Source: Burkholderiales bacterium
GTDB taxonomy: Bacteria > Pseudomonadota > Gammaproteobacteria > Burkholderiales > Ga0077523
Reading direction: 5' to 3'
DNA: 58,985 nucleotides
Assembly (NCBI GenBank): GCA_044339985.1
Contig: JBIIUM010000004.1
Coordinates: forward strand, 1 to 58,985
In this document: positions 23,024-49,328 of the stretch, one piece after another
Layout: every line of letters begins with the position of its first letter
Position numbering within the stretch: position 1 is the stretch's first letter
Program-made: the position numbers and the translations under genes
The notes under the pieces: model-generated
What the model was told of the DNA's origin: nothing
Database searches by the model: none
Seen by the model: only the letters and a program-made list of their open reading frames with translations

Positions 23024-24553
23024 TCAGAGCGCCTTGCGCAGGTTGACCGGCAGAATCTGCAGCGACTCGCGGTACTTGGCAATGGTGCGGCGGGCCACCA
23101 CGATGCCCTGCTTGCCCAGGATCTCGGAGATCTGGCTGTCGGATAACGGCCGATGCGAGTCTTCCTCTCCCACCATCTGCTTGATGAGCGCGCGGATGGC
23201 CGTCGCGGAGCATGCGCCGCCGGTATCGGTGGCCACGTGGCTGCCGAAGAAATACTTCAGCTCGAAGATGCCGCGCGGCGTGAGCATGAATTTCTGGGTG
23301 GTCACGCGCGAGATGGTGGACTCATGCAGGCCCAGCAGGTCGGCGATCTCGCGCAGCACCAACGGCCGCATGGCAACCTCGCCATGCTCGAAGAAGTGGC
23401 GCTGGCGGTCCACGATGCATTGGGACACCCTCAGGATGGTGTCGAAGCGCTGCTGGACGTTCTTGATGAGCCACTTCGCCTCCTGCAACTGGCTGGAGAG
23501 CTGCTGGTGGCTGGCGTCACGGTTACGCGACAGGATGTCGGCATACAGGCGGTTTACGCGCAGCCGAGGCATGGCGTCGGGGTTGAGCGACGCCAGCCAC
23601 ATGCCCTTCACCTTGCGCACGATCACGTCGGCCACCACGTAGCGCGCCTCGTCGCGGGAGTAACGAGACCCGGGCCTGGGGTCCAGCCCGGTGATCACCC
23701 GCTGTACTTCCCGCAAGGTGTCCTGGTCGCACTTCAGCACCCGCTTGAGGCGCGCGAAATCGCGTGCCGCCAGGGCATCGAGGTGGTCGCGCACCACTGT
23801 CAGCGCCAGACTCCGGTATGGCATCTCGACCGGCATCGCGCGCAGTTGCAACTCGAGACATTCGGCAAGGCTGCGGGCGCCGACCCCGGCGGGCTCGAGC
23901 TGCTGCACGTGGCGCAGGGCCACCAGCAGATCGTCCTCGTCCGCCTGCAGGTCCGCGGGCAGCGCCTCCGCGAGTTCAGTGAGGTCGGTCTTCAGGTAGC
24001 CGTCGTCATCCAGGGAATCCACGATGGCCCCGGCGAGCTGCTTGTCATGCGAGGGCAGCGGCACCATGTTGAGCTGCCAGAGCAGGTGTTCCCGCAGGCT
24101 GGTGGCGCCAGCGGCCGTCTGCGGGTAGTCGCCATCCTCGCCCTCGGGCGGCTGACTGCCGCCGTAGCTGCCTTCGTCCGTCCAGTCGGGCTCCTCGGGC
24201 CGATCGGCCTCGGCCGATGCAGCGGCCGAGCCGGCAGCCTCGGGCAACTCGGGCCGCGACTCGTCGAAATCGTCCATGGTCGAGTCGGGGGCGCCGCCGC
24301 TGTCGGACGGGCTATCGCCACCAGCGGAAGCCTCTGCAGCGCCTTCGGGCTGACCTTCGCCGGGCGCGCCCGAGCCGCTGCCCGCGGCGTCGTCGTCGTC
24401 GTCGTCGCGTTCGAGCAGCGGATTTTCCTGCAGGAACTTTTCCAGTTCCTGGTTGAGCTCGAGCGTGGATAGCTGGAGAAGCCTGATCGACTGCTGCAGC
24501 TGAGGCGTGAGCGTCAGGTGCTGCGACAGCTTGAGCTGCAGGGAGGGCTTCAT
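23024..24553 (-). CDS. rpoN: RNA polymerase sigma-54 factor
   Basis: LTLTPQLQQSIRLLQL region I, HESTISRVT, RpoN box ARRTIAKYR. Confidence 0.98.
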   Translation of the reverse strand: MKPSLQLKLSQHLTLTPQLQQSIRLLQLSTLELNQELEKFLQENPLLERDDDDDDAAGSGSGAPGEGQPEGAAEASAGGDSPSDSGGAPDSTMDDFDESRPELPEAAGSAAASAEADRPEEPDWTDEGSYGGSQPPEGEDGDYPQTAAGATSLREHLLWQLNMVPLPSHDKQLAGAIVDSLDDDGYLKTDLTELAEALPADLQADEDDLLVALRHVQQLEPAGVGARSLAECLELQLRAMPVEMPYRSLALTVVRDHLDALAARDFARLKRVLKCDQDTLREVQRVITGLDPRPGSRYSRDEARYVVADVIVRKVKGMWLASLNPDAMPRLRVNRLYADILSRNRDASHQQLSSQLQEAKWLIKNVQQRFDTILRVSQCIVDRQRHFFEHGEVAMRPLVLREIADLLGLHESTISRVTTQKFMLTPRGIFELKYFFGSHVATDTGGACSATAIRALIKQMVGEEDSHRPLSDSQISEILGKQGIVVARRTIAKYRESLQILPVNLRKAL

Positions 24554-24630
24554 GGAAAACCGCCGCGGGCGCGGTGAAGCGCGACGAAACCTATGGGGAG
24601 GGGAACGAGAATCGGGCCATGGACTGCCGC

Positions 24631-25380
24631 CTATAGCTTGAAATGCTCGCCCAGATAGACTTTTCGCACCGCTTCATTATAGACGATCTCCTCTGGATGA
24701 CCGTATGCCAGGACCGAGCCGTCGTTGATGATGTAGGCCCGGTCACATATGCCGAGCGTCTCGCGCACATTGTGGTCGGTGATCAGCACGCCGATGCCGC
24801 GATCCTTGAGGAAGCGGATGATGCGTTGAATCTCGATCACGGCAATTGGGTCCACGCCCGCGAAGGGTTCGTCCAGCAGGATGAAGCGCGGATCGCTGGC
24901 GAGTGCCCGGGCGATCTCGACGCGCCGCCGCTCGCCCCCGGAAAGGCTCACCGCCGGGCTGTTGCGAAGGTGCGAGACGTGAAGGTCCATGAGTAGCGCA
25001 TCGAGGCGCTCTCCTACCCGCGTTGTTGGCAGATTGCCCAGTTCGAGCACGGCGCGGATGTTCTCGGCCACCGTGAGCTTCCGGAAGATGGAGGGTTCCT
25101 GGGGGAGGTAGGACAGCCCGAGGCGTGCCCGCTTGTGGATGGGCAGGCGGCTCACGTTGCGACCGTCGAGGAAAATCTCGCCGCCATCGAGCGGCACCAG
25201 TCCCACCATCATGTAGAAGCAGGTGGTCTTGCCCGCACCGTTGGGCCCCAGCAGCCCAACCACCTCGCCGCTGCGCACCTCCAGCGACACGTCCCTGACA
25301 ACGGTGCGGGCGCGATAGCGTTTGGCCAGCGAAGCCGCGCGCAGTTCCGACACAGCGGCGCCTGCGCCGGGGGCGTTCAC
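24631..25380 (-). CDS. lptB: LPS export ABC ATPase
   Basis: [52 protein letters not shown]. Confidence 0.96.
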
Positions 25381-26000
25381 CGGGTGCCGCCCGAGAGATC
25401 AGGGGCGGGCTTCAGTACGCTGCCCCCGGATGCGGAACCGGGCACGCCTTCGCCGGGCTTGGCCTTGGGCTGAATCACAGCCCGTACCCGCCCGCCGCCC
25501 TGGCCAGCGGGCGCGCTGGTGCCGCCGGCATTGCCATGGACCTGGAAGAATTCGGTGGTGGCGTTGTAGGAGATGTAGTCGCCGCGCACTTCGTCACCGC
25601 CTTTGGTGAGGTGGGCCGCGTTGAACATCTGCACCAGGTCTTTCTTGCCGTCGTATTCCAGGCGCTCGGCAAACCCGTCCACGTACTCGTCTACGCCGTC
25701 GCGCTTCTGGCGAAACGTTGCCGGGCGGCCCCATGCCACGCCGTAGCTGAAGCCTTCGGCATCCTGGCGCACCACCACCCGGTCACCGCGCAGCCGCAGG
25801 GTTCCCTGTGTGATCACCACGTTGCCTTCGAACACCGATTCTTTCTTCGCATCATCCACCAGCATGCGGTCTGCTTCGATGTTGAGCGGTTTCTGGCGGT
25901 CGGCCTTTTCGGCCGCAGCTGAAAAGGCCGCCAGGGCAAGCATGCCCGCGAAAAGCGCTTCAGCGGCGCGGGTCGAGCGGAGAAGCGGTGGGACCGTCAT
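25377..26000 (-). CDS. lptA: LPS transport periplasmic protein
   Basis: [44 protein letters not shown]; lies between lptC and lptB. Confidence 0.93.
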
Positions 26001-26568
26001 ATTGGACCTTCACGTTTGACAGCATCTTCAGGGTCCTGGCGCGGTTGTTGAATTCCATGCCCACACCGTCTGCTTGCAGCGTGCCGCGGGTCAGGGTGAC
26101 GGGCTTGTCGGTGCGCGCGAGGTCCTGGTCGGGGATGAGGTGCAGAAACTCGGTGGCCAGATGCAGAGGCGGGGCATCGGCATAGGCAGCGCGCGAGATG
26201 CGCACCGCGCCGGTGAAGTAAACGTGTTCGCCGTTGCGCGACAGCAACGCCCGCCGCGCGGTTGCATGTACCGGCGCCGCGGGGGGCGCGTAATGGAAGA
26301 ATTCCGGCTCCTCCACCTGGGTGCTGTCGTCGTCGGGGTGGTGGACCATGCGCCGCCCGTTCAGGGCATGGCGGCGTGTGCCGTCGGGGTAGAGCTTCAC
26401 GGCCGCGAAATTCTCCATGATCATGTCCGGATCGTGGCGGCTGGTGCCATCTCTGGGCGGGGTGGGCGGGCGCACACGCTGGTCGAGCCAGCCGGTGAGC
26501 CCAGCCAACAGCGCCAGCAACAGCACCGGATACCAGCGTACGAGCCGGTCGGCCAGCGACGAGTTCAC
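25960..26568 (-). CDS. lptC: LPS export protein
   Basis: Single N-terminal TM segment, HDPD, HHPDDD, TDKPV, GVGM; conserved gene position. Confidence 0.9.
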   Translation of the reverse strand: MNSSLADRLVRWYPVLLLALLAGLTGWLDQRVRPPTPPRDGTSRHDPDMIMENFAAVKLYPDGTRRHALNGRRMVHHPDDDSTQVEEPEFFHYAPPAAPVHATARRALLSRNGEHVYFTGAVRISRAAYADAPPLHLATEFLHLIPDQDLARTDKPVTLTRGTLQADGVGMEFNNRARTLKMLSNVKVQYDGPTASPLDPRR

Positions 26569-27095
26569 ACCAGAAAGGCGGCCTGAGCCGCCTCCAGCCG
26601 CCCTTGGGCGCGAAGGATGTATTCGCAGGCCTCTCGGACTGCGCCGCGGCCGCCCGAAGCCGCGGTCACCAAGTGGGCGTGGCCGCGCACCAGGTCCGGC
26701 GCGTCGGGCACGGATATGGCAAGGCCGCAGCGACGCAGCACAGGCAAGTCGGGGAGATCGTCACCCATGTAGCTTGCCTCGGCCGGGTCGAGTCCGACTT
26801 CGGCGAGCAATTCCGCAAAGGCGGCAAGCTTGTCCTGCACCCCCTGGCGCAACAAGGCGATGCCAAGCTCCGCCGCGCGCAGTTCCACTGTCCGTGAGCG
26901 GCGGCCGGTGATGATGCCCAGCATCACGCCGCTGCCAGCCAGCATCTTCAGCCCCAGCCCGTCGAGAATGCTGAAGCCTTTGGATTCCCGGCCGGCGTCG
27001 TCGAGCCAGACGGTGCCATCAGTCAACACACCATCCACGTCAAAGGCCGCAAGACGGATCCGGCGTGCGCGCGCCTCTGGACTCGGACTCGTCAC
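26565..27095 (-). CDS. kdsC: KDO 8-phosphate phosphatase
   Basis: FDVDGVLTDG, IITGR, YMGDDLPD, GGRGAVRE. Confidence 0.95.
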   Translation of the reverse strand: MTSPSPEARARRIRLAAFDVDGVLTDGTVWLDDAGRESKGFSILDGLGLKMLAGSGVMLGIITGRRSRTVELRAAELGIALLRQGVQDKLAAFAELLAEVGLDPAEASYMGDDLPDLPVLRRCGLAISVPDAPDLVRGHAHLVTAASGGRGAVREACEYILRAQGRLEAAQAAFLV

Positions 27096-27104
27096 GGCGC
27101 TGGC

Positions 27105-28103
27105 CTATATGACCCGGGCACGGAACAGGTCGTGCATGTTGAGCGCGCCCACCAGGCGGCCCTGGTCCACCACCAGGAGACCGTTGATGCGTCGGCGGTC
27201 CATCTCCTCCACCGCCTCCACGGCCAGGCGCGAGGAGGCGATGGTGCACGGTGCGCGCGTCATCACCGCCGTCACCGGTGAGCCCAGCCCATGGCCGCTG
27301 GCCAGGGCGCGGCGCAGGTCGCCGTCCGTGAACAGCCCCGCCACCGCGCCGCCCGTGTCCAGCACCGCGGTCATGCCCATGCTCTTGCTGGTGATTTCGA
27401 ACAGCGCCTGCTCGATGGTGGCGGTGTCGGGCACTCGAGGCACCTGCTCGCCCGTGCGCATCACGTCGCCCACGTGGGTCAGCAGGCGGCGGCCCAGGGT
27501 GCCTCCCGGATGGGACCGCGCGAAATCCTCCGGACCAAAGCCGCGGGCCTCCAGGGCGGCCACTGCCAGGGCGTCTCCCAGGGCGAGGGCGGCGGTGGTG
27601 CTGGCGGTGGGCGCGAGCCCCAGCGGGCAAGCCTCCTCTGCCACCGCGGCATCCAGGTGAACATCGGCCTCGCGCGCCAGCGTCGAGGCGGCGTTTCCGG
27701 TGAGAGCCACCAGTCGCGCGCCGCGCCGCTTCACCAGCGGCACGATCGACAGCAGTTCGGCGCTTTCGCCCGAATTGGACAGCGCGATCATCACATCACC
27801 CGCGGTGATCATGCCCAGGTCGCCATGGCTCGCCTCGGCAGGGTGCACGAAAAAGGCGGGTGTGCCGGTGCTCGCCAGCGTGGCGGCGATCTTGCGCGCC
27901 ACGTGGCCGGACTTGCCCATGCCGGAGACCACCACTCGGCCAGTGCAGGTCAGCAGCAGTGCCAGCGCTTGGGAAAAACTGGCGTCCAAGCGCGCGGACA
28001 GCGCCGCCACGGCGCGCGCTTCGATGTCGAGCACGCGCCGGCCGGTGGCCAGCGCCTGCTCCGGCGCGAGCTGTCCAAGGGTGTTTCCGAGGGTGCCTGG
28101 CAT
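27105..28103 (-). CDS. kdsD: Arabinose-5-phosphate isomerase (KpsF/GutQ family, SIS + 2 CBS)
   Basis: GMGKSGH, STGTPAFFVHPAEASHGDLG, APTASTT, HPGGTLG. Start at ATG 28103, with a TATACT -10 element at 28113-28118 (minus). Confidence 0.95.
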   Translation of the reverse strand: MPGTLGNTLGQLAPEQALATGRRVLDIEARAVAALSARLDASFSQALALLLTCTGRVVVSGMGKSGHVARKIAATLASTGTPAFFVHPAEASHGDLGMITAGDVMIALSNSGESAELLSIVPLVKRRGARLVALTGNAASTLAREADVHLDAAVAEEACPLGLAPTASTTAALALGDALAVAALEARGFGPEDFARSHPGGTLGRRLLTHVGDVMRTGEQVPRVPDTATIEQALFEITSKSMGMTAVLDTGGAVAGLFTDGDLRRALASGHGLGSPVTAVMTRAPCTIASSRLAVEAVEEMDRRRINGLLVVDQGRLVGALNMHDLFRARVI

Positions 28104-28210
28104 GGAGCGCCGAGTATAGCGCGCACCCCCCGCGCGGCTCGCACAACACGTCATGGCGCAAGGGCCCAAGGGGCGCGTGTGCTAGATTCGAGAGAGCGCG
28201 CAGCCACGCC

Positions 28211-30178: not shown

Positions 30179-30213
30179 AAAAAACGTCCGCGCGCGGGGC
30201 GGGCGGACGTTTT
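30179..30213. terminator. Rho-independent, probably bidirectional terminator between the antiporter and the major pilin gene
   Basis: AAAACGTCCGC...GCGGACGTTTT stem, with an A6 run on the left (U-tract on the minus strand). Confidence 0.75.
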
Positions 30214-30247
30214 CCCACGCTGCCGCACGGAGGGCAGCCGCGGAGCG

Positions 30248-30949
30248 CTACATGAAGCTGGCGGCGCCGCAGTTCACGTTGGTCTGGCCGGTGAGGTTCC
30301 ACGCGCCAGCGGCCGTGATGCAGGCCGGCGCTGCGCCCGGAGCGTCGGGAGCAGTTCCACCCTGGGTGAAAACAGAGAACACGAACGAGCCGGAGATTCC
30401 GTTGCCGTCGTCGGTCTTGCGGTCCACCTCCGCAACGATTTCCACCGGGATCTGGCTGCCTGTCTTGAGGCTGTGACGTTCAGCGGCTGTGGCGCCAGTG
30501 GCCACTGCGTAAACATTGTCGTAGGCAAGCCCGAGGTACTGGCCGTACGGGTTCTTGGGGATCACCAAATCGCCGACGGTCGCGTTATACACATAATTGC
30601 CATTGATGAAACCAGACTTGGACAGGTGCTCCCAGACAAGGAAGGGCTCGGTTACGGCTGAATTGCCCGTTCCGGACGATTTGATGACGCCATCGCCGTT
30701 GCCGTTGGTGGTGGCGCCCTGGATGTTCTGCACAGCGCTGGCGTAATCGCCTGGCAGGCCGCGGTAGCGATCCTGAAAGCCGAAGAACGCGGCCTTGATG
30801 CCGTCCTGCTGCTGGATGAGATTGCGCACGCGCGCCGAGGTGATGAGTTCCTGCCCCTTGAGGATGCCGCCGAGCAGCAGCCCGATGATCACCAGCACGA
30901 TGGCGATTTCGATCAGCGTGAAGCCTTTTTGGGGGTTGCGGGGTTTCAT
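30248..30949 (-). CDS. Putative major pilin/pseudopilin with class III signal peptide
   Basis: MKPRNPQKG|FTLIEIAIVLVIIGLLLGG (G-1, F+1, E+5); C-terminal Cys pair; own promoter, RBS (AAGGA) and terminator. Confidence 0.88.
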   Translation of the reverse strand: MKPRNPQKGFTLIEIAIVLVIIGLLLGGILKGQELITSARVRNLIQQQDGIKAAFFGFQDRYRGLPGDYASAVQNIQGATTNGNGDGVIKSSGTGNSAVTEPFLVWEHLSKSGFINGNYVYNATVGDLVIPKNPYGQYLGLAYDNVYAVATGATAAERHSLKTGSQIPVEIVAEVDRKTDDGNGISGSFVFSVFTQGGTAPDAPGAAPACITAAGAWNLTGQTNVNCGAASFM

Positions 30950-30990
30950 GGCAGATTTCCTTGAGTGATACGACTCGCGGATAACCGCAG

Positions 30991-31005
30991 GCTATTTTCG
31001 TGCCA
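30991..31005 (-). promoter_or_regulatory. Sigma54 (-24/-12) promoter of the pilin gene
   Basis: Minus strand TGGCACGAAAATAGC: GG-N10-GC spacing exact, 1 mismatch to TGGCACG-N4-TTGC, 41 nt upstream of the ATG. Confidence 0.8.
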
Positions 31006-31020
31006 GCTGGCCAAAATGAA

Positions 31021-31046
31021 TATTCTTTTGTTTACACAATGACTTA
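31021..31046. promoter_or_regulatory. IHF-like site with A/T tract
   Basis: TATTCTTTTGTTT followed by ACACAATGACTTA (CAA-N4-TTA core of WATCAANNNNTTR), between the promoter and the putative enhancer. Confidence 0.55.
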
Positions 31047-31100
31047 AAAAAATCGCCTGCATCGGCGTAGATGCTTGCCGCCGCGAGCGTTGCACCATTC

Positions 31101-31134
31101 GACGGCGTTTCGACTGTGTTGACGGTTTTTCGGC
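31101..31134. promoter_or_regulatory. Tandem candidate enhancer (UAS) boxes for a sigma54 activator
   Basis: GACGGCGTTTCGAC (31101-31114) and GACGGTTTTTCGGC (31121-31134), 20 bp periodicity, about 120-155 nt upstream of the inferred start site. Confidence 0.55.
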
Positions 31135-31171
31135 GCGCGCCCTGGGGGTATCCGGTGCCGGGGCGGCGGTG

Positions 31172-31915
31172 TCAGGGCGTGTTGCCCGTTGACGGGCGAT
31201 GTAGCTGCAGCCTCTCGAGCCGTTCGGCGAGAAAGCGGATCTCGCTCGGGTCGGTGACCGTGCCGCTGGCCAGCAACCCGCCCAGCAGCACCCGGGCAGC
31301 TTCATACTCGCCCAGATCTTCCCGCAGGAAGATGTGCATCTGCCGGGCCCAACCGGGTACGCCGGGGCCGTGGGCATGGTCGCGCAGCGCGTCGGCGTAG
31401 CGCACCGCCAGCGGCAGGTCCTTCAGGCGATGCTTGGCCATGATGGCGCCGTGGGCCAGCCAGGGCCAGCGGCGCTCGGGGTCTTCCAGGAATTTCTCCA
31501 GGACGAACTCCGCCATGAGGCGCGATTTTTCAGGGAACCCGTACACCTGGCCGTACACATGGGAGGCCATGAGCAGCGGATACTGCCCGGCAGGATCAAG
31601 GCCCAGGATGCGGTCTAGCCATCCGGCTACGCGGGGGTAATCGAGTTCGGCAAAGGGGATGCTCACGCCAGGCTGATTGTCGAAGGCTTGCAGCCACAAC
31701 GTCAGAATCTGGGCGAGGCCGATGGGCTCGCCGAGCGCCGCGACTCGAAGCGCCGCCAGAGCGGGGGGCACCGGCAGATCACCAGCTTGCGCCTTGGGAG
31801 GGGAGCGCTGCCACTGAAAGCCCAGGTGCAGGGCGAGCGCCAGCGCCAGAGCGGCGAGGGTTGCCGCGGGTACGGCAGCCATGGGCCGCTCATCGCGGTG
31901 CTGCCGCGGCTTCAC
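31172..31915 (-). CDS. Membrane-anchored helical (TPR-like) accessory protein, possibly PilG/XapA-like
   Basis: N-terminal TM segment, then LWLQAFDNQPG...LDYPRVAGWLDRILGLDPAGQYPLLMA...WPWLAHGA...PGWAR; GTGA overlap with the permease; alternative start ATG 31882. Confidence 0.65.
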   Translation of the reverse strand: MKPRQHRDERPMAAVPAATLAALALALALHLGFQWQRSPPKAQAGDLPVPPALAALRVAALGEPIGLAQILTLWLQAFDNQPGVSIPFAELDYPRVAGWLDRILGLDPAGQYPLLMASHVYGQVYGFPEKSRLMAEFVLEKFLEDPERRWPWLAHGAIMAKHRLKDLPLAVRYADALRDHAHGPGVPGWARQMHIFLREDLGEYEAARVLLGGLLASGTVTDPSEIRFLAERLERLQLHRPSTGNTP

Positions 31916-32691
31916 TGGTTGCGCCGGTAAAGGTCGAAGCAGGCCGCCGTGAACAGCAGCAGCACGTACACCGCGCTCTGCGCGGCGATCCCGGGCAGTT
32001 CAGCCCAGGGCGCGCCTTCGCCCAGGAGCCACGCCGTGCGGGTGAACCGATCCAGATCGGGCAGTGCCAACTCGACGGTACGTACCGCCACTACTGCGGC
32101 GCGGTGCGTCCAGGAGCCATCGTCCAGCAGCGCCGAACCAGCGATCAGCACCACCGCCGCCATGGTCCGCGAAAGGACGTAGAAGGACAGCACGAAGGCG
32201 GCCGCCAGCATGAGCTGGCTGAACGTGATGACGCAAAACAGCGCCGCCGCCGCCACCAGCAGGCTTTCCAGGCCCAGAGACAGCGCCCAGGCGCACCACG
32301 CACCCGCCGGCGCCACTGCGGCCAGGGGCAACGCCAGCACCGCCGAGGCAGCCAGCGCAACGGCGCCATAGCCCAGCAGCTTTCCGCACAGGTATTGCCC
32401 GCGGGTGATGTCCGCCGCCAGCAGCAGCTCGGTGACTTTGTCCTGGTTTTCGCGCAGCATGCTTGCAAGCACGTGCATGCACACCACGAACACGGCTGCG
32501 AGCCGCACGCCGGCAGCCAGCAATCCGGCCTGGATACGCGCAGCCTCCGTGATGGCAAGACTCCGCGCGAACAGCGCGGCGCCGAACAGCGATAGGGCCA
32601 TGGCCAGCACGATCCAGGGAAGGCGCGTGCGCAGCGCCTCGATCCACGCAAAGGAAGCCACTACGCGAATGCGCTCGACAGCGCTGGACAT
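31912..32691 (-). CDS. ABC-2-type exporter permease (PilI/Xap-like)
   Basis: About six TM segments; EALRTR near the N-terminus, ELLLAADITRGQYLCGKLLG, LPDL and C-terminal FDLYRR motifs. Confidence 0.8.
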   Translation of the reverse strand: MSSAVERIRVVASFAWIEALRTRLPWIVLAMALSLFGAALFARSLAITEAARIQAGLLAAGVRLAAVFVVCMHVLASMLRENQDKVTELLLAADITRGQYLCGKLLGYGAVALAASAVLALPLAAVAPAGAWCAWALSLGLESLLVAAAALFCVITFSQLMLAAAFVLSFYVLSRTMAAVVLIAGSALLDDGSWTHRAAVVAVRTVELALPDLDRFTRTAWLLGEGAPWAELPGIAAQSAVYVLLLFTAACFDLYRRNQ

Positions 32692-32787
32692 CAGGGTTGC
32701 TCGCGGTCAAGGATAGACAGCCGGATGTTAACCGACGCGATCCTGCCCGCGCCCTCACAGCCGCCCCATTGATTCCCGCCGCCCGCC

Positions 32788-34500
32788 ATGCCGCTGCCTT
32801 TTGCCGCTGAATTTCTCTGGCGCCGCCAGAACCTGACCTTCAGCCTGATGCTGGCGGCCCTGCACCTTGCCCTGGCGCTCGAACTGCAGGGTGGCGCACT
32901 CAAGGCGTTCGTGCTCATGCATTTCGGACTGTTTCTTCTCTGGCAACCCATGTGGCAGGGCGGTCGCGATCTGGTGCCGGGCCATGCGGCTGTGCTGGTG
33001 GCGGCGGGTGTTGCCCTGGCCTGGTGGTCCAACGGGTGGTTGCTGGCGTTGTGGATTGCCGTGCTGTTTGCGCTGATCGGCAGCCGCTTGCCGGGTATGC
33101 GCGACGGGCGCCAGCGCGCAGCCTCGTTGCTGGCCGCTTTTTACTTGATGGCGCTGTTGTTTGCTTGGGTGGTTCCCAAGCTTTTCGAAAACGCACAAGG
33201 CTATCCGCCCTTCGCGCTCGACCTGATTCGCTATGGCCTGATCGTGCCGGTGGTGATCATCGCGTGGCTGCCTGCCGAGGCGCGCTCCGAGCCCGCCCGT
33301 CAGGGCATCGACCTGGTGTACAGCCTGCTGCTGTTCCTGCTGATGGTGGTGCTGGTGCTGGGCGCGCTGTTCGTGCAGCGACTGGCGGGGGGGGGCTACG
33401 TGGCAGCGCTTGCCGCCACCGTGCTGGGGGTCGCGGCGATGCTGCTGCTGCTGGCATGGCTTTGGGACCCTCGCGGGGGCTTCGAGGGCATCGGGCAACT
33501 GCTGTCCCGGTACTTCCTGAGCCTGGGGCTGCCGTTCGAGCAGTGGATGCACCGCCTTGCGAGCCTCGCCGAGAGCGAGACCGATCCGGAACGCTTCCTC
33601 AGCAGCGCCTCTCGGGAGATGCTGGGTCTGCCCTGGTTATCGGGTGTTTCCTGGCAGTGCGAACGGGGCAGCGGGGCGGCGGGCGTTGCCAAGGGCGCAG
33701 TGACACGCCTGAACGCCGGGGGTCTGATTCTGGAGATGCACACCCGCGTCAGGCCGAGCCCGGCGTTGCTGATGCATATGCGCCTGCTGGCGCAGTTGCT
33801 GGGCGACTATTACGCCGCAAAGGTGCGAGAGGAGGCGCAACGCAGCAGCGCGTATGTGCAGGCCGTGCACGAAACCGGCGCTCGCCTCACCCACGATGTC
33901 AAGAACCTGTTGCAGTCGCTGCGCTCCCTGTGTTCGGCAGCGCAGTCCGCGGGCGCCCGCGACGACGAGGCGCTGCGGCGGCTGATCCAGCGTCAACTGC
34001 CGCTGATGGCGCAGCGGCTTCAGGTGACCCTGGACAAGATCGAGGCGCGTCCCGCTTCCGGTGAGGAGCGCGATGCACCGGCGGCCGAGTGGTGGCGCGC
34101 CCTGGGGCAGCGCCATGCCCACGAGCGGGTGGATCTGCGCGCCCGAACCCTGCCGGCTTCGGCCCACGTGCCCGCCGATCTGTTCGATCGCGTCGTGGAG
34201 AACCTGCTGCACAACGCCCTGGAGAAGCGCCAGCGGCGCGAGGCTTCGGAGGTGACCGTGGAACTGGCCTGCGAGGGCAATGCCTGCCGCCTGGCGGTAA
34301 GCGATGATGGCGAAGCCGTGCCCCAGTCTTTGGCCAGGCGCCTGTTCGAAGCGCCCGTGCCCTCGGCCAGCGGGCTGGGGGTCGGCTTGTATCAGAGCGC
34401 CCGGTACGCCGCCGAGCGCGGCTACCGCCTGACGCTGGAGCGCAATGTGCGCGGCGACGTGCGCTTCGTGCTGGCGCCGGCCGATTCAGACCCGGGTTGA
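32788..34500 (+). CDS. Polytopic membrane sensor histidine kinase (PrsK-like H-box)
   Basis: About 8 TM segments; H-box LTHDVKNLL, N-box ENLLHNALE, G1 SDDG, G2 GLGVGLYQS. Confidence 0.88.
   Translation: MPLPFAAEFLWRRQNLTFSLMLAALHLALALELQGGALKAFVLMHFGLFLLWQPMWQGGRDLVPGHAAVLVAAGVALAWWSNGWLLALWIAVLFALIGSRLPGMRDGRQRAASLLAAFYLMALLFAWVVPKLFENAQGYPPFALDLIRYGLIVPVVIIAWLPAEARSEPARQGIDLVYSLLLFLLMVVLVLGALFVQRLAGGGYVAALAATVLGVAAMLLLLAWLWDPRGGFEGIGQLLSRYFLSLGLPFEQWMHRLASLAESETDPERFLSSASREMLGLPWLSGVSWQCERGSGAAGVAKGAVTRLNAGGLILEMHTRVRPSPALLMHMRLLAQLLGDYYAAKVREEAQRSSAYVQAVHETGARLTHDVKNLLQSLRSLCSAAQSAGARDDEALRRLIQRQLPLMAQRLQVTLDKIEARPASGEERDAPAAEWWRALGQRHAHERVDLRARTLPASAHVPADLFDRVVENLLHNALEKRQRREASEVTVELACEGNACRLAVSDDGEAVPQSLARRLFEAPVPSASGLGVGLYQSARYAAERGYRLTLERNVRGDVRFVLAPADSDPG
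33387..33395 (+). repeat. G9 homopolymer within the kinase gene
   Basis: ctggc-GGGGGGGGG-ctac, currently in frame (A-G-G-G-Y). Confidence 0.9.
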
Positions 34501-37359: not shown

Positions 37360-37967
37360 GGCCTTTTCTCCGTCTCCACGTCCGGCACGGTGATCCAGGC
37401 GATCTCGCACTCCGCACTCACATTGGACAACGTGCCGGAGGGATCGGCGCCCCCGGTACGCGTCAATTGGCAGGCGTTGATGGTGAACAGCCCGGTGCGT
37501 TTCTCGGCCAGGCTGCGGAAGAAGCGCATGAGGTCTTCCTCGTGAACCAGGGGGATGGTGAGCCTTGCGATGGATTGACGCACGGGCAGGTCGCCGGCCC
37601 CCAACTCGTTCGCCAGCGGGTAGGGGCCTTGTTGCCCGATCTGGTACTGCAGGTTGTCCAGGGCCAAGTCGCGGTTGGCCGCGGATAACCCGTCGACCCA
37701 CGTGAGGCGTTGCTCGGCGCCCACGAAGCCCAGCGCCTGCAGTGCCTGGTACGTAGGCAGGTAGCGTTGGATCAACGCCTTTTCGCTGCCGGCATTGCTT
37801 TGCTTCAGGCGAGCATCGGAGAGCTCGCGTTGCTGGACCGCGAGCCGCTGTTGGGCGGCGCTCACCAGAGTTTCCGAATGGCGCGCCAGCTGCACCGCGC
37901 CAACCGTCACCACCGCAAGCACGGCCACGGGCAGCAGCAAGGGGGGCACAGAGCGGGGCCGCTTCAC
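37356..37967 (-). CDS. Bitopic alignment-complex protein (PilO/GspM-like)
   Basis: N-terminal TM segment, coiled coil, HEEDL followed by beta-rich C-terminus; overlaps both neighbours. Confidence 0.7.
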   Translation of the reverse strand: MKRPRSVPPLLLPVAVLAVVTVGAVQLARHSETLVSAAQQRLAVQQRELSDARLKQSNAGSEKALIQRYLPTYQALQALGFVGAEQRLTWVDGLSAANRDLALDNLQYQIGQQGPYPLANELGAGDLPVRQSIARLTIPLVHEEDLMRFFRSLAEKRTGLFTINACQLTRTGGADPSGTLSNVSAECEIAWITVPDVETEKRP

Positions 37968-45870: not shown

Positions 45871-45938
45871 TGGTGCGCACCAAAAGGAGGAAGCGCGGGG
45901 CCTTGAGTTGGGAGGGGGCGTGAGCATGGACTAATAAT

Positions 45939-46152: not shown

Positions 46153-47127
46153 CTACGGAGCCTTGGGCAGCGAAGGCGCTGGAGGCGCCGGCGGCGAGGA
46201 ACTGTTGCTTTGCTGAAACACCCACCAGGCGCTGCCCGCCGCAATCACCATGACGACGGCGATCACGCCGGTTATCCAACCACGAGAAAGCCGCGACCGG
46301 CGTTGCGCTGCCGATGGCTGGTTGAACTCGCTATCCCGAACCGCCACCCGGGCGTGCTCGATCGTCACCGTATGGGTGTTGGCGGCGAAGGCCGCCAGCA
46401 GCGTTTTCTCGGCGATCAGGTTGATTCGGCGGGTGAGCCCGCCGCTGGCGCGGGCGATGAAGGCGACCACCTTGGGAGGGAACAGCGCCGGCCCCCGGTA
46501 GCCGGCGGCATGCAGACGGAAGTTGAGGTACTCGCCGATGTCCGGTTCCGCCAAGGGCGCGAGATTGAAGCTGTGAGTGATGCGTTCCCTGAGTTGGCGG
46601 ATACTGGTTTCGCTCAGGTTTTCGTCCAACTCCGGCTGGCCGAAGAGCACAAGCTGCAACAACTTGTGGCGGTCGGTTTCGAGGTTGGAGAGCAGCCGGA
46701 TTTCCTCCAGGGTGGCAATCGGCATCCCCTGCGATTCTTCCACGAACACCACCACTTGCCGGCCTTCGGAGTGGCGCCGCAACAGGTAATCGTGCAGCGC
46801 GTGCATAACCTCCAGGCGTTTGGCATCGCGTGCCACCGGCAGCTGCAGCTCGAAGGCAATCGCGTGCATGATTTCGTCGGGCGAGACGCTGGGATTGCCA
46901 AGATAGACAATGTCGACGCGCTCGGCGAGCCTTGCCTGCAGCATGCGGCACAGCATGGTCTTGCCGCTGCCCACTTCGCCGGTAACCTTGATGATCCCCT
47001 CGCCGTTGAGGATGGCGTAAACAAGGGCATCCAGAACCGCTCCGCGGTTGGCGCCCTCGAAAAAAAACTCGGTGTCGGGCGTGATCCGGAAGGGTGGGCG
47101 CTTGAGCCCGAAAAAAGCGTAGTACAT
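46153..47127 (-). CDS. ExeA/GspA/MshM-family AAA ATPase with C-terminal TM anchor
   Basis: MYYAFFGLKRPPFRITPD, TGEVGSGKT, VFVEESQ, LFGQPEL, RQLRERI, SGGLTRRIN; start at ATG 47127. Confidence 0.93.
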   Translation of the reverse strand: MYYAFFGLKRPPFRITPDTEFFFEGANRGAVLDALVYAILNGEGIIKVTGEVGSGKTMLCRMLQARLAERVDIVYLGNPSVSPDEIMHAIAFELQLPVARDAKRLEVMHALHDYLLRRHSEGRQVVVFVEESQGMPIATLEEIRLLSNLETDRHKLLQLVLFGQPELDENLSETSIRQLRERITHSFNLAPLAEPDIGEYLNFRLHAAGYRGPALFPPKVVAFIARASGGLTRRINLIAEKTLLAAFAANTHTVTIEHARVAVRDSEFNQPSAAQRRSRLSRGWITGVIAVVMVIAAGSAWWVFQQSNSSSPPAPPAPSLPKAP

Positions 47128-47134
47128 GCGCCCC

Positions 47135-48589
47135 CTACGCCCGCCCGCCGGGGCTGCTGCCCGCCGCGTGGGTGTCGTGGCCCTGAACACGGCCGTAGAG
47201 GGTGGTGCGACGAACGCCAAGCATGCGGGCTGCCTGGCTGAAGTTGCCGTGGCTCATGGCGAGTGCAGCCTCCACGAAGCAGCGTTCCCACTGACGCAGA
47301 GTCTCGTCCAGGTCGAGGTTGTGACGCGTCTCAAGGATTCCGCGGGCCGCCTGCACGCTGGGCTCGAAGCTAAACGCAGGCGTAGCCGTTTCCTCATGGG
47401 ACGGGAGCGAACCCGCGAAATCTAGCTCCGTGGCGAGTTGCTCTCGGCTGACCTTTTGGCCGGAGTGCCGGGTTATCAGCCGTATCACCACGTTACGCAA
47501 TTCACGCACGTTACCGGGGAAGGGATAATCCATCCACAGCGCAAGCGCTTCTGGAGAAAGAACAAATGGCGTTGCGCCTGTCTGGGCCGCATACAGCGCC
47601 GTAAAGTGTTCCAGCAGCAGCTGACGGTCTTGCCCCAGCTCGCGCAGCGGCGCCACCTGAATGGCAAACACGGACAACCGGTGATAGAGGTCAAGGCGGA
47701 AGCGGCCTGCGCGCACCTCCTCCCGCAACCCGCGGTTGGTGGCGGCAATCACCCGGGCTTCGCTGTGCCGCGACTGGGTTTCGCCGACGCGCTGAAACTC
47801 GCCGTTTTCCAGGACACGCAGCAACTTGGCTTGCAGCTCCAGAGGCAGCTCGCCGATCTCGTCAAGGAACAGCGTGCCGTCGCGAGCGTCTTCGAAGTAA
47901 CCGCTGCGGGCTCCGGCGGCGCCGGTGAAAGCCCCCTTGGCGTGGCCGAACAGGGTGGGTTCCACCAGGTTTGCCGAAATGGCGGCGCAGTTCAGGGCGA
48001 GATAGGGTCGTCCAGCACGAAGGCCGAAACGGTGCAGTGCCTCGGCCACCAGTTCCTTCCCGCTACCCGATTCGCCTTCAATGAGCACGGGAAAGGGCGA
48101 ACTGCCGTACAGGGCGATCTGCTCGCGCAGTCGCTCAATAGGGAAGCTCCTGCCCACGATGCCGCTGGTGGCGGCAGGGTCGCGCTTCTCGGCTGCACTG
48201 AAGCCGGAGGCGCGCAGCAGCAACTCCTTGAGGCGCTCGGGCTCGCACGGCTTGGCCACAAAATCCACCGCGCCCAGGGCGCGAGCATGGCGGGCGTTCG
48301 CCTCGTCGTTCTGGCCTGAGAGCACCAGGATTTTCATGTGTGGTGCGGCGCCGAGCAGGTCTCCGATGAGCTTGAAACCCTCGTCGGGGCGGTGCGGCGT
48401 GGGCGGAAGGCCCAGGTCCACCAGCGCGAGGCCGGGCGGCTCGCCGAGTTGCATCAGGAGGCTTTGCACCTGGCCACGGGAATCGGCGGCATAGACGTTG
48501 AAGTCACGACCAAGCACGAAGGACAGGGTATCGGAGATCAGCGGATCGTCATCGACGATCAGCAGGTCGGGCCGGACCTTGGTCTCCAT
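47135..48589 (-). CDS. Sigma54-dependent response regulator (REC-AAA+-Fis HTH; PrsR-like receiver)
   Basis: LLIVDDD, VDLGLPP, KP; GESGSGKE, intact GAFTGA, FLDEIGE, FPGNVREL; HTH NFSQAARMLGVRRTTLY. Confidence 0.94.
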   Translation of the reverse strand: METKVRPDLLIVDDDPLISDTLSFVLGRDFNVYAADSRGQVQSLLMQLGEPPGLALVDLGLPPTPHRPDEGFKLIGDLLGAAPHMKILVLSGQNDEANARHARALGAVDFVAKPCEPERLKELLLRASGFSAAEKRDPAATSGIVGRSFPIERLREQIALYGSSPFPVLIEGESGSGKELVAEALHRFGLRAGRPYLALNCAAISANLVEPTLFGHAKGAFTGAAGARSGYFEDARDGTLFLDEIGELPLELQAKLLRVLENGEFQRVGETQSRHSEARVIAATNRGLREEVRAGRFRLDLYHRLSVFAIQVAPLRELGQDRQLLLEHFTALYAAQTGATPFVLSPEALALWMDYPFPGNVRELRNVVIRLITRHSGQKVSREQLATELDFAGSLPSHEETATPAFSFEPSVQAARGILETRHNLDLDETLRQWERCFVEAALAMSHGNFSQAARMLGVRRTTLYGRVQGHDTHAAGSSPGGRA

Positions 48590-48596
48590 GGAGGAC

Positions 48597-49328
48597 TCAG
48601 GCGGCCCGAGGCTCATCGATCAGCCTCAGGAACGCCTGCTCCAGTGAAGCGTCACCGTGGGAAGCGCGCAATTGGGCGGGCCTGCCCACGTAGCGCAGGT
48701 GGCCGCGGTGCAGCACGGCCATCCGGCTGCACATCTCGTCCACGTCAGCGAGCGCGTGGGAAGTGATGAACACGGTGGCGCCGCCCGCGTGGCGCTCTCG
48801 CAACACTGCTTTGAGCAGCGCCCGGGCCTTGGGATCGAGACCGCTGGTGGGTTCGTCCAGCACAAGCATGGGGCGGCCCGCGAGCAGGGCGCAGGCAAGC
48901 CCAAGTTTTTGCGTCATGCCTTTGGAGAAGGCGCGCACCGGCTTGTCGAGAGCCCCCGCATCGAGGTCAAGGCTGGAGATGGTGGAACGAGCCAGTGCTT
49001 CATCGTACCGTTGTCCGTAGAGCCGCAGCATGAGGCGAAGAAAATCCCTCCCCGTGGCATAGAAGGGGGCATTGAATCGCTCGGGCACGAACGCGATGCT
49101 GGAACGCGCTTCGGTGCGCGTACTCGGGATGCCGAAAAGTTCGATGCGACCCTCTTCAGCGCGGTTGGCGTCGAGCAGACACTTGATCAGCGTGGTCTTG
49201 CCGGCGCCATTCATGCCCACCAAGCCGAAGAAATCTCCCTGATCCACTTCCAGATTCACCTCCGCCAGGGCGGCCAGCGGGCCGAAGCGCTTGGTGACCT
49301 GATCGATGCGAAGGGCGGGTGGCGGCAT
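48597..49328 (-). CDS. ABC exporter ATP-binding protein (PilH/XapD-like)
   Basis: GMNGAGKTT, FSKGMTQKLG, LDEPTSGLDP, SHAL; start at ATG 49328. Confidence 0.9.
   Translation of the reverse strand: MPPPALRIDQVTKRFGPLAALAEVNLEVDQGDFFGLVGMNGAGKTTLIKCLLDANRAEEGRIELFGIPSTRTEARSSIAFVPERFNAPFYATGRDFLRLMLRLYGQRYDEALARSTISSLDLDAGALDKPVRAFSKGMTQKLGLACALLAGRPMLVLDEPTSGLDPKARALLKAVLRERHAGGATVFITSHALADVDEMCSRMAVLHRGHLRYVGRPAQLRASHGDASLEQAFLRLIDEPRAA

What the first reader, a model, noticed from the sequence alone, without database searches (positions are those of the whole stretch)
30991..31134. Complete sigma54 promoter architecture readable upstream of the pilin, including a candidate new activator binding motif
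Seen, in order going upstream of the ATG: TGGCACGAAAATAGC (-24/-12), an AT tract with an IHF-like CAA-N4-TTA core (31021-31046), then two boxes GACGGnnTTTCGrC exactly 20 bp apart (31101 and 31121). The first box is one mismatch from a GTCG-N6-CGAC palindrome. Established: enhancer-IHF-sigma54 is the standard layout for bEBP-activated promoters such as PilR-pilA. Inference: the boxes are the binding sites of the regulator at 47135..48589, giving a testable motif for its regulon.
Basis: partly seen in the sequence, partly recalled or inferred. Interest (0 to 1): 0.7.

Follow-up and report, generated by a model that had tools for sequence, protein, structure and literature searches.

The report
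Sigma-54 pilin promoter with conserved enhancer
An uncultured lake bacterium's pilus-subunit gene has a textbook sigma-54 promoter, and its paired upstream activator sites are conserved across many related genomes, so this is an ordinary kind of switch with a binding motif I found no report of.

Summary
Taken alone in this window, none of the elements beats chance. Comparison with relatives makes the case.

- **Promoter:** a GG-N10-GC element with at least 9 of 11 consensus positions lies upstream of the orthologous pilin in 50 of 59 distinct regions (0.54 expected).
- **Boxes:** the two 14-bp boxes (consensus GYCGARAAnTCGWC, an imperfect GTCG-N6-CGAC palindrome) recur 20 bp apart in 54 of 55 regions with two or more boxes. 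A matrix built only from relatives finds exactly one site in this 3.59-Mb genome, at 31101-31134.
- **DNA-level selection:** in most relatives the boxes overlap the last codons and stop codon of the upstream gene and force rare codons there. The conservation is therefore on the DNA, not the protein.
- **Candidate binder:** the cluster's NtrC-type response regulator and a multi-pass histidine kinase co-occur with the promoter and boxes. Binding is inferred, not shown.
- **IHF:** the site is strong in relatives (36 of 59 vs 7.6 expected) but degenerate here (2 mismatches).
- **Regulon:** it appears to be this single promoter.
- **Transcript data:** RNA-library contigs give conflicting hints about the start site.

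This is a new member of a known kind, of moderate interest.

The parts
31121..31134 (-). Distal activator box GCCGAAAAACCGTC, centre about -148.5 from the predicted start site
   Evidence: Letters confirmed. It is part of the only genome-wide hit of the relatives' box-pair matrix (33.4 bits) and is the best single-box hit in the window (20.0 bits).
31101..31114 (-). Proximal activator box GTCGAAACGCCGTC, one mismatch from GTCG-N6-CGAC, centre about -128.5
   Evidence: It is identical in the 94%-related genome G012 although the flanks differ.
31006..31056 (.). AT-rich tract (42-47% GC in a 68% GC genome) with a T7 run and a degenerate IHF-like site, ACACAATGACTTA, at 31034-31046 (+)
   Evidence: Composition. 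Three sites have 2 mismatches to WATCAANNNNTTR, not significant alone. Relatives carry strong IHF consensus sites at the equivalent place.
30991..31005 (-). Sigma-54 -24/-12 element TGGCACGAAAATAGC (GG at 31004-31003, GC at 30992-30991)
   Evidence: Conserved position and sequence in orthologs.
30979..30979 (-). Predicted transcription start, 12 nt after the C of the -12 GC
   Evidence: Inference from the usual geometry. An RNA-library contig of run X20 ends at 30978, but a contig of X22 from a 93%-similar strain extends past the -24 element. The evidence is conflicting and weak.
30956..30962 (-). Ribosome-binding site AAGGAAA, 6 nt before the ATG
   Evidence: Read. Identical in G012.
30248..30949 (-). 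Pilin gene, 233 aa, prepilin-type N-terminal cleavage/methylation motif (QKGFTLIE)
   Evidence: PF07963 33.9 bits and TIGR02532 27.7 bits. Found in 46 of 61 related genomes. RNA-library contigs cover it.
30179..30213 (-). Intrinsic terminator after the pilin gene: an AAAACGUCCGC...GCGGACGUUUU stem followed by a U-run
   Evidence: RNA fold -27.1 kcal/mol, z = -3.92, 0 of 200 shuffles as good. The simple scan did not list it.
31172..31915 (-). Conserved gene of unknown function (ORF-U, 247 aa) that precedes the pilin. In most relatives its last codons and stop codon are the box pair; here it ends 38 nt before the boxes.
   Evidence: No Pfam or NCBIfam hit. 485 related loci in genome contigs. Box position relative to the stop codon.
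32788..34500 (+). Multi-pass sensor histidine kinase (hydrophobic stretches across residues 15-228, HATPase_c at the C-terminus), likely partner of the regulator
   Evidence: An ortholog lies 1-3 kb from the pilin wherever both were found, with the same phyletic pattern as the regulator in 37 relatives.
47135..48616 (-). NtrC-family response regulator: REC, sigma-54 AAA+ domain with GAFTGA, Fis-type HTH. Candidate binder of the boxes. Public annotations start at 48589 (484 aa).
   Evidence: Ortholog 15-22 kb from the pilin on the same contig in 20 genomes including this one.
23024..24553 (-). rpoN (sigma-54) gene
   Evidence: NF004598, 734.4 bits against a cut-off of 621.

Best explanation
The pilin gene at 30248-30949 is a one-gene transcription unit. 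It runs from a sigma-54 promoter (-24/-12 at 30991-31005, predicted start near 30979) to an intrinsic terminator at 30179-31213's counterpart 30179-30213.

The two 14-bp imperfect palindromes at 31101-31114 and 31121-31134 are centred about -128 and -148. Their centres are 20 bp, two helical turns, apart. They form the enhancer: two dimers of an NtrC-family activator bind there. DNA bending across the AT-rich spacer then brings the activator to the closed sigma-54 complex. In relatives IHF does the bending; here the candidates are a degenerate IHF site and a T-tract. ATP hydrolysis by the activator opens the promoter.

The most likely activator is the response regulator at 47135-48616, phosphorylated by the multi-pass kinase at 32788-34500. 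The circuit seems dedicated to this single promoter.

Shown by computation: conservation and uniqueness of the promoter and boxes, selection on the boxes at the DNA level, and co-occurrence with the kinase and regulator. Inferred: who binds, the start site, sigma-54 dependence, and bending.
For: **Promoter.** In 59 distinct orthologous upstream regions, 50 have GG-N10-GC with at least 9 of 11 consensus positions (0.54 expected from shuffles) and 30 have at least 10 (0.04 expected). In 56 of 59 the GG lies 38-70 nt before the ATG. rpoN is in the window. No sigma-70-like promoter was found in 30200-32800.

**Boxes.**
- A 34-nt matrix trained on 14 relatives (own genome and its twin left out) scores 31101-31134 at 33.4 bits. 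The next best hit in 3.59 Mb is 17.1, and the reversed-genome maximum is 18.2.
- 61 of 80 further public loci carry the pair at 23 bits or more on the sense strand, against 0 of 80 on the antisense strand.
- Without imposing any spacing, the two best single boxes are exactly 20 bp apart in 54 of 55 regions.
- A pattern scan of 61 genomes gave 28 hits, 19 of them within about 310 bp upstream of the pilin. The control gave 5.

**DNA-level rather than protein-level selection.**
- In 58 of those 61 loci the pair overlaps the upstream gene's tail and stop codon.
- The GAC arm is kept whether it contains the stop (TGAC) or follows it (TAG-CGAC).
- Codon use in the tail is skewed compared with the body of the same genes: Ser TCG+TCA 97% vs 27%; Arg AGA 56% vs 2%; Thr ACC 2% vs 52%; Lys AAA 77% vs 43%.
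- The tail is not conserved as protein.
- The pair is fully intergenic here and in 3 other loci.

**Regulator.**
- It has REC, Walker A, GAFTGA and HTH_8. It is 1 of 6 strong sigma-54 activator genes in the genome.
- An ortholog is present in 39 of 61 genomes. In 20 of them it lies on the pilin's contig, 15-22 kb away.
- All 15 genomes without the pilin also lack the regulator and the kinase.
- In distant genomes, 9 of 10 pilin loci with the regulator have the promoter at 9/11 or better, and the tenth has it at 8/11. By eye, 9 of the 10 also have paired GTC-N8-GAC boxes. 0 of 5 genomes lacking the regulator have the promoter at 9/11 or better, and I saw no such boxes there.

**Bending.** An IHF consensus with at most 1 mismatch lies between boxes and promoter in 36 of 59 regions vs 7.6 expected. 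IHF alpha and beta genes are present in this genome.
Against: - No experiment was done, so binding, sigma-54 dependence and the start site are all inferred.
- Related genomes are not independent, so the counts overstate the support.
- The window's own IHF-like sites have 2 mismatches and are not significant. Neither this genome nor G012 has a site with at most 1 mismatch.
- An RNA-library contig of run X22, from a 93%-similar strain, covers the whole pilin gene and runs 36 nt beyond 30971. That takes it through the strain's -12 and -24 elements, which a start at about 30979 would not give.
- L031, whose upstream gene is 84% identical, keeps a GG-N10-GC but has no recognisable box pair.
- G005 has the boxes but no regulator ortholog in its assembly. 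Its contig, however, starts less than 15 kb before the pilin.
- The regulator's HTH (RTTLY helix) is conserved, but that is common to the whole family and does not single it out.
- By consensus count alone, the -24/-12 match is not above the genome's background.
Confidence: 0.68

Rival explanations
1. The promoter and enhancer are real, but the boxes are bound by another protein. That could be one of the other five sigma-54 activators of this genome, or a repressor or other dimeric helix-turn-helix protein.
For: The genome has 6 strong sigma-54 activator genes. Nothing here shows contact between the cluster's regulator and the boxes. In G049 the regulator lies 168 kb from the pilin and kinase pair. 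G005 has boxes with no regulator ortholog found.
Against: The regulator and kinase orthologs share the pilin promoter's distribution: 15 of 15 pilin-less genomes lack both, and the 5 distant genomes with the pilin but no regulator lack the promoter at 9/11 or better, with no boxes seen. It is the only DNA-binding regulator identified in the cluster. The box pair occurs once per genome, as expected for a dedicated local regulator.
Confidence: 0.2
2. The -24/-12 match is not the working promoter. The pilin would be transcribed by read-through from the upstream genes, or from a start further upstream in the AT-rich tract.
For: The X22 RNA-library contig extends through the -24 element of a 93%-similar strain. 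Consensus matches of this quality are as common as in the reversed genome (343 vs 288).
Against: The element is conserved in sequence and position in 50 of 59 regions vs 0.54 expected. No sigma-70-like promoter was found. The X20 contig, identical to the window, ends at 30978. Contigs cannot define transcript ends, and RNA libraries can hold DNA.
Confidence: 0.05
3. The boxes are conserved only because in relatives they encode the C-terminal tail of the upstream protein. The copy in this window would then be a non-functional remnant of that coding sequence.
For: In 58 of the 61 loci with a strong box pair, it lies in the last codons of the upstream gene, always in the same frame. In another frame the window's boxes read AEKPSTQSKRRR, like the relatives' tails.
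Against: - The tail is not conserved as protein, yet the DNA is.
- Codon choice in the tail is extreme and fits the motif.
- The GAC arm is conserved across or beyond the stop codon.
- The boxes stay intact in non-coding DNA here and in G012 while the flanks diverge, including a 1-nt indel.
- Distant genomes carry the pair in a kinase-pilin intergenic region with no upstream gene of this kind.
- The window gene's own tail has lost the motif (-19.9 bits).
Confidence: 0.04
4. The boxes act as RNA: hairpins at the 3' end of the upstream transcript, serving as a terminator or stability element.
For: Each box is a near-palindrome and lies at or after the end of the upstream gene.
Against: The box region folds worse than shuffles (-5.6 kcal/mol, z = +2.09). 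The stretch before the T-run is no better than shuffles (z = -0.07). No terminator-like site was found there and no Rfam match. Conservation is of specific bases (G1, G4, G12, C14), not of pairing: position 2 is C in 42% while position 13 is A or T.
Confidence: 0.02

Closest known systems
PilS-PilR / sigma-54 control of pilA in Pseudomonas aeruginosa
   Same: A pilin gene is driven by a sigma-54 promoter and activated by an NtrC-family response regulator. Its kinase has many membrane segments. PilS is described as an atypical kinase with six transmembrane segments that interacts with PilA (passages of PMC6058289). The kinase here has hydrophobic stretches across residues 15-228.
   Different: The pilus machinery here is of the MSHA type: MshL-like secretin, and an MshE-like ATPase with a c-di-GMP-binding N-terminus. 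The paper gives the hallmarks of PilR sites as a NifA-like TGT-N11-AGA plus GTCT elements; the boxes here are GYCGARAAnTCGWC pairs. Orthology to PilR or PilS was not tested. Pilin sensing by this kinase is speculation.
Nps-Npa / RpoN / IHF control of pilE in commensal Neisseria (a betaproteobacterium)
   Same: A pilin promoter dependent on RpoN, IHF and a two-component activator. I saw only the title and the start of the abstract of PMC6528607 in the listing.
   Different: That is a type IVa pilin in a cultured host-associated genus. Its binding motif was not read here, and no sequence comparison was made.
PrsK-PrsR / sigma-54 promoters of PEP-CTERM genes (Haft et al. 2006, PMC1569441)
   Same: The logic and the way of discovery are the same: a conserved upstream motif plus a -24/-12 motif before single-gene operons, with a distribution matching an NtrC-type regulator, a membrane kinase and a TPR protein (passages). 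The best NCBIfam hit of the kinase here, and a top-three hit of the regulator, are PrsK and PrsR. The cluster's AAA ATPase scores best against the PEP-CTERM-associated ATPase model, and the PrsT model is the TPR protein's second-best hit; both are below cut-off.
   Different: All those scores are far below the curated cut-offs (328 vs 502.6; 51 vs 300). The target is a pilin, not a PEP-CTERM protein. PrsR motif 1 is a 17-nt motif ending in TTTACA about 63 nt before the sigma-54 motif. Here the motif is a pair of 14-mers 68-231 nt before it.
NifA upstream activator sequence TGT-N10-ACA (recalled, not from a call)
   Same: A dyad-symmetric site of about 14-16 bp for a Fis-type HTH of a sigma-54 activator, more than 100 bp upstream, often with IHF between. 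Several distant relatives' boxes read TGTC-N8-GACA, which fits TGT-N10-ACA.
   Different: In this genome and its genus the flanking T and A are absent and the conserved core is GYCGA...TCGWC. The site is unique in the genome, so it is not a nif-type regulon.

Membership tests
Sigma-54 (-24/-12) promoter | GG and GC dinucleotides spaced 10 nt apart within TGGCAC-N5-TTGC (consensus recalled) | tested here: met
   TGGCACGAAAATAGC at 30991-31005, 10 of 11 specified positions.
Sigma-54 (-24/-12) promoter | Sigma-54 encoded by the organism | tested here: met
   rpoN at 23024-24553, 734.4 bits vs cut-off 621.
Sigma-54 (-24/-12) promoter | Element conserved at the same place before orthologous genes | tested here: met
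   50 of 59 regions with at least 9/11 vs 0.54 expected; 56 of 59 lie 38-70 nt before the ATG.
Sigma-54 (-24/-12) promoter | Transcription starts about 12 nt after the GC and depends on rpoN | tested here: inconclusive
   The X20 RNA-library contig ends at 30978. The X22 contig of a related strain runs through the -24 element. Contigs cannot define ends, and rpoN dependence is not testable with these tools.
Enhancer (UAS) of a bacterial enhancer-binding protein | Dyad-symmetric sites, usually in tandem, roughly 80-250 bp upstream of the -24/-12 element | tested here: met
   Two 14-mers near GTCG-N6-CGAC, 20 bp apart, with the pair centre 113 nt before the GG here and 68-231 nt in relatives.
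Enhancer (UAS) of a bacterial enhancer-binding protein | Conserved as DNA, independent of coding | tested here: met
   Codon skew, conservation across the stop codon, intergenic copies, and a unique genome-wide hit.
Enhancer (UAS) of a bacterial enhancer-binding protein | Bound by a sigma-54 activator with an intact GAFTGA loop and a DNA-binding domain | not testable with these tools
   A suitable regulator exists (REC, GAFTGA, HTH_8) and co-occurs with the boxes. Binding was not tested.
IHF-assisted sigma-54 promoter | IHF consensus WATCAANNNNTTR (recalled) between enhancer and promoter | tested here: not met
   In the window the best sites have 2 mismatches, with a shuffle fraction of 0.05-0.09. 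In relatives the feature is met: 36 of 59 with at most 1 mismatch vs 7.6 expected.
IHF-assisted sigma-54 promoter | IHF alpha and beta genes present | tested here: met
   TIGR00987 150.8 bits (cut-off 120.25) and TIGR00988 130.5 bits (cut-off 119.95).
PrsK/PrsR (PEP-CTERM) two-component system | Scores above the curated cut-offs of TIGR02915 and TIGR02916 | tested here: not met
   Regulator 328 bits vs 502.6; kinase 51 bits vs 300, C-terminal part only.
PilS/PilR two-component system | Orthology to PilR and PilS, and PilR-type sites (NifA-like TGT-N11-AGA plus GTCT, as quoted in PMC6058289) | tested here: inconclusive
   No PilR or PilS model was listed among the NCBIfam hits and no reference sequence was compared. 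The boxes do not show the quoted hallmarks.

The most novel reading that the evidence does not exclude
This would be a dedicated, single-target sensory circuit that arose separately from PilS-PilR. A PrsK/PrsR-like multi-pass kinase and NtrC-type regulator would autoregulate the major subunit of an MSHA-type pilus, perhaps by sensing pilin in the membrane as PilS does. Its enhancer is a dual-use sequence: across most of the family the two activator sites are written into the last eleven codons and the stop codon of the upstream gene. They dictate that protein's tail (AEKSTxPSK*) and its rare codons. This genome's lineage has moved the enhancer about 38 nt beyond the stop codon.
Probability: 0.3. 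Interest if true: 0.55.

Novelty: new member of a known kind. Interest (0 to 1): 0.4.

Why it matters
- It gives a concrete, testable DNA motif (GYCGARAAnTCGWC, two copies 20 bp apart) and a single target promoter for a regulator and kinase pair. That pair is widespread in uncultured freshwater and groundwater Betaproteobacteria and is annotated only generically (485 related loci; public names).
- It suggests that an MSHA-type pilus in these bacteria is switched on by a signal through sigma-54. RNA-library contigs from lakes do hold the pilin gene.
- The enhancer overlaps the stop codon of the neighbouring gene and visibly distorts codon choice there. This is a clean natural example of a regulatory site constraining a coding sequence.
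- The mechanism itself is textbook.

Tried and rejected
- **In-window statistics:** counts for the -24/-12 and box patterns are not significant. A genome-wide consensus count of -24/-12 matches is no better than the reversed genome.
- **Sigma-70 promoters and terminators:** a scan of 30200-32800 found nothing near the site.
- **Suspected terminator at 31046-31075** (CGCC..GGCG plus T7): the fold is no better than shuffles.
- **Boxes as RNA hairpins:** rejected. Rfam gave no match in 30850-31300.
- **IHF site in the window:** only 2-mismatch sites.
- **Single-box scan of the window:** one extra hit at 39384 (17.9 bits) lies inside a coding region, with no partner box and no -24/-12 element nearby. 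I treat it as unexplained or chance.
- **Second pilin-like gene on contig C133:** neither boxes nor a -24/-12 element with 9 or more consensus positions upstream.
- **PrsR motif (ends in TTTACA):** a TTTACA lies in the AT tract on the opposite strand, but about 27 nt from the promoter rather than about 63. I do not take it as a PrsR site; the published logo could not be seen.
- **Regulator HTH alignment across 21 genomes:** the RTTLY helix is conserved, but this is not specific. The window's lineage differs in the helix region (R for H before RTTLY, G for S, V for M) and also has CCGTC/CCGAC right arms. That is a one-lineage hint of co-variation, not a test.
- **RNA-library contigs:** the four runs laid showed no cover over 31026-31950. 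I draw no conclusion from that.
- **Literature:** four answered searches found no description of this motif or of sigma-54 control of an MSHA-type pilin in Betaproteobacteria. Subscription journals are not covered, and no supplements were consulted.
Full report
**Setting.** The window is contig C76 of a 3.59-Mb, 68% GC draft genome. Public look-alikes are uncultured Betaproteobacteria/Burkholderiales/Rhodocyclaceae genomes assembled from metagenomes. Runs holding this DNA are labelled lake-water metagenomes.

The finding lies in the 222-bp gap between a gene of unknown function (ORF-U, 31172-31915, minus strand) and a 233-aa gene with a prepilin N-terminal methylation motif (30248-30949, minus strand). 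The surrounding genes are:
- rpoN (23024-24553);
- a multi-pass histidine kinase (32788-34500, plus strand);
- minor-pilin-like ORFs;
- MSHA-type pilus machinery: a GspF/PilC-like platform (39532-40731); an MshE-like ATPase with a c-di-GMP-binding N-terminus (40778-42526); a TPR protein; an MshL-like secretin (43957-45927); and an ExeA/MshM-like AAA ATPase (46153-47220);
- an NtrC-family response regulator (47135-48616).

**1. The observation.**
- TGGCACGAAAATAGC is at 30991-31005 on the minus strand.
- The boxes GTCGAAACGCCGTC (31101-31114) and GCCGAAAAACCGTC (31121-31134) are 20 bp apart.
- The proximal box is one mismatch from GTCG-N6-CGAC.
- A CAA-N4-TTA core sits in the AT-rich tract.

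Judged inside the window alone, none of this beats chance. The promoter pattern gives 2 matches against 1.24 expected. The box pattern gives 2 against 0.78, and it was derived from these same sites. The IHF-like sites have 2 mismatches. Genome-wide, -24/-12 consensus matches are as frequent as in the reversed genome, 343 vs 288. The question therefore had to be settled by comparison with relatives.

**2. The promoter is conserved.** The pilin has matches in 46 of 61 related genomes. The upstream gene's family has 485 loci in the public genome collection, of which 80 were fetched. I assembled 71 upstream regions that had both a box pair and a pilin start; 59 were distinct.
- 50 of 59 carry GG-N10-GC with at least 9 of 11 consensus positions. 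Shuffles predict 0.54.
- 30 of 59 carry at least 10 positions, against 0.04 expected.
- In 56 of 59 the GG lies 38-70 nt before the ATG.

No sigma-70-like promoter was found between 30200 and 32800. Downstream of the pilin there is a strong hairpin followed by a U-run at 30179-30213 (-27.1 kcal/mol, z = -3.9). The pilin therefore looks like a one-gene unit of about 800 nt.

**3. The boxes are a conserved DNA element.**
- A 34-nt matrix was built from 14 relatives, leaving out this genome and its 94% twin. It scores 31101-31134 at 33.4 bits. The next best site in the whole genome scores 17.1, and the best in the reversed genome 18.2. This is an out-of-sample hit, and it is unique.
- Of the 80 further loci, 61 have the pair at 23 bits or more on the sense strand and none on the antisense strand. 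These are 59 distinct 34-mers, some from genomes also in the training set.
- With a single-box matrix and no spacing imposed, 55 of 64 distinct regions have at least two boxes. In 54 of those 55 the two best are exactly 20 bp apart.
- A degenerate pattern with up to 3 mismatches hit 28 places in 61 genomes. Nineteen of them lie within about 310 bp upstream of the pilin gene. The backwards control hit 5 places.
- The pooled single-box consensus is GYCGAAAAWTCGWC. G1, G4 and C14 are nearly invariant and G12 is at 94%. Many relatives carry perfect GTCGA-N4-TCGAC or GTCG-N6-CGAC palindromes.

**4. DNA-level selection, not protein-level.** In 58 of the 61 loci the pair overlaps the last codons and the stop codon of ORF-U. 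Most often the stop TGA lies inside the final TGAC arm (35 loci), or a stop codon precedes a CGAC arm (8 loci). This raised the rival that the boxes are merely a conserved protein tail. Five things argue against it.
- The tail is not conserved as protein, whereas the body of ORF-U is.
- The GAC arm is kept whether it contains the stop or follows it.
- Codon choice in the tail is strongly skewed towards the motif, compared with the bodies of the same genes. In 56 distinct sequences: Ser TCG+TCA 97% vs 27%; Arg AGA 56% vs 2%; Thr ACC 2% vs 52%; Lys AAA 77% vs 43%.
- The pair is fully intergenic in this genome, in its twin and in three other loci. In distant genomes it lies between the kinase and pilin genes with no ORF-U at all.
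- In this window ORF-U's own tail has lost the motif (-19.9 bits). The intergenic copy, 38 nt beyond the stop, is intact. It is nearly identical in G012 although the flanks differ, including a 1-nt indel.

The two copies share a CCGTCAAC core, and the gene still ends in CCCTGAC as in some relatives. That suggests the enhancer was duplicated or displaced out of the gene in this lineage. This is an inference of low weight.

As RNA the boxes do not fold (z = +2.09), and no Rfam family matches.

**5. Who binds.** The regulator has a receiver domain, Walker A, an intact GAFTGA loop and a Fis-type HTH. It is one of six strong sigma-54 activator genes in the genome.
- Orthologs at E <= 1e-100 are in 39 of 61 genomes. 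In 20 genomes, this one included, they share the pilin's contig, 15-22 kb away.
- The kinase ortholog (E <= 1e-60) is also in 39 of 61 genomes and lies 1-3 kb from the pilin. The two lists agree for 37 relatives. G001 has only the regulator, and G005 only the kinase.
- All 15 genomes without a pilin match lack both.
- Among distant genomes, 9 of 10 pilin loci from regulator-bearing genomes have the -24/-12 element at 9/11 or better, and the tenth has it at 8/11. By eye, 9 of the 10 also show paired GTC-N8-GAC boxes 19-21 bp apart; the exception is G051. The five genomes with a pilin-like gene but no regulator have no -24/-12 element at 9/11 or better, and I saw no such boxes there.
- G005 has the boxes but no regulator ortholog. 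Its contig starts less than 15 kb before the pilin, so the gene may simply be unassembled.

These counts come from related genomes and overstate independence. They show linkage, not contact. The regulator's recognition helix (RTTLY) is conserved in all orthologs, but it is typical of the whole family.

**6. Bending.** Between boxes and promoter, 36 of 59 relatives have an IHF consensus with at most one mismatch, many of them perfect. Shuffles predict 7.6. This genome encodes IHF alpha and beta. Here and in G012, however, no site has fewer than 2 mismatches. The enhancer is also closer to the promoter: the pair centre is 113 nt from the GG, against mostly 140-230 nt elsewhere. IHF help is therefore plausible but unproven here. 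The T7 run and the AT-rich tract (42-47% GC) may contribute intrinsic curvature, which is my inference.

**7. Transcript data.** Four metatranscriptome runs hold contigs of the pilin gene.
- A contig of X20, identical to the window, spans 30792-30978. It ends 1 nt from the predicted start at 30979.
- A 794-nt contig of X22 comes from a strain 93% similar. It covers the whole gene and continues 36 nt beyond 30971. The 30 letters shown match G012's own sequence as printed (my reading), through the -12 element and into the -24 element. The six further letters, which are not shown, would carry it through the whole TGGCAC.

The first is a weak hint for the predicted start. The second is a weak hint against it, or for read-through or DNA in that library. 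Contigs cannot define transcript ends.

**8. Comparison with known systems.** The design matches three known cases:
- PilS-PilR/sigma-54 at pilA (passages of PMC6058289);
- RpoN/IHF/Npa at pilE of commensal Neisseria (listing only);
- PrsK-PrsR at PEP-CTERM genes (passages of PMC1569441).

It is not a PrsK/PrsR member: scores are 328 vs 502.6 and 51 vs 300. Its boxes do not show the quoted PilR hallmarks or the PrsR motif. In distant relatives the boxes fit the recalled NifA-type TGT-N10-ACA geometry.

Four answered literature searches found no description of this motif or of sigma-54 control of an MSHA-type pilin in Betaproteobacteria. Public annotations of the three proteins are generic.

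**Verdict.** It is a new member of a well-known kind of switch. One locus used in the matrix, in alignment A1 and in the counts (L025, from G050) is from an unpublished genome. No claim depends on it alone.

Noticed in passing
L032-L110 and L003-L030 (relatives); window 31172-31210 for comparison: In 58 of the 61 loci with a strong box pair, the enhancer boxes overlap the last codons and stop codon of the upstream gene and impose rare codons there (AGA, AAA, TCG/TCA, ACG). In this window the gene's own tail has lost the motif and the boxes sit 38 nt beyond the stop.
   Followed up: yes
window 40778-42526 (-): The pilus assembly ATPase carries an N-terminal MshE-type c-di-GMP-binding domain (NF053729, 65.1 bits vs cut-off 38). 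Pilus assembly may therefore also respond to c-di-GMP.
   Followed up: no
window 39371-39384 (-): A lone box-like 14-mer, GTTGAAAAATCCAC (17.9 bits; reversed-window maximum 12.5), lies inside the 5' part of the ORF 37964-39523. It has no partner box and no -24/-12 element nearby.
   Followed up: partly
G000 contig C133:946-1635 (-): A second, 45%-identical pilin-like gene elsewhere in the genome has neither the box pair nor a -24/-12 element with 9 or more consensus positions upstream.
   Followed up: partly
G007:C1:3013172-3017184, G019:C73:41301-45348 and other relatives: Relatives carry tandem arrays of up to five paralogous pilin genes after the promoter, whereas this genome has one at the locus. 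In G053 both tandem pilins have their own -24/-12 element.
   Followed up: partly
L031:2215-2466: A relative whose upstream gene is 84% identical keeps a GG-N10-GC before the pilin but has no recognisable box pair (best 8.1 bits).
   Followed up: partly
window 31912-32691 (-) and 48597-49421 (-): An ABC-2-type permease-like gene next to ORF-U and an ABC ATPase gene next to the regulator flank the pilus cluster. Their link to the pilus is unknown.
   Followed up: no
L117 (G051:C365:3657-3690): A 28-bit box-pair match lies inside the 3' part of the kinase gene, about 1.5 kb before that genome's pilin. The pilin's own upstream region there shows a different inverted repeat (CGTCAAC-N18-GTTGACG).
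   Followed up: no
window 23024-28169: rpoN sits in the usual kdsD-kdsC-lptC-lptA-lptB-rpoN arrangement, 6.4 kb from the pilin promoter.
   Followed up: no
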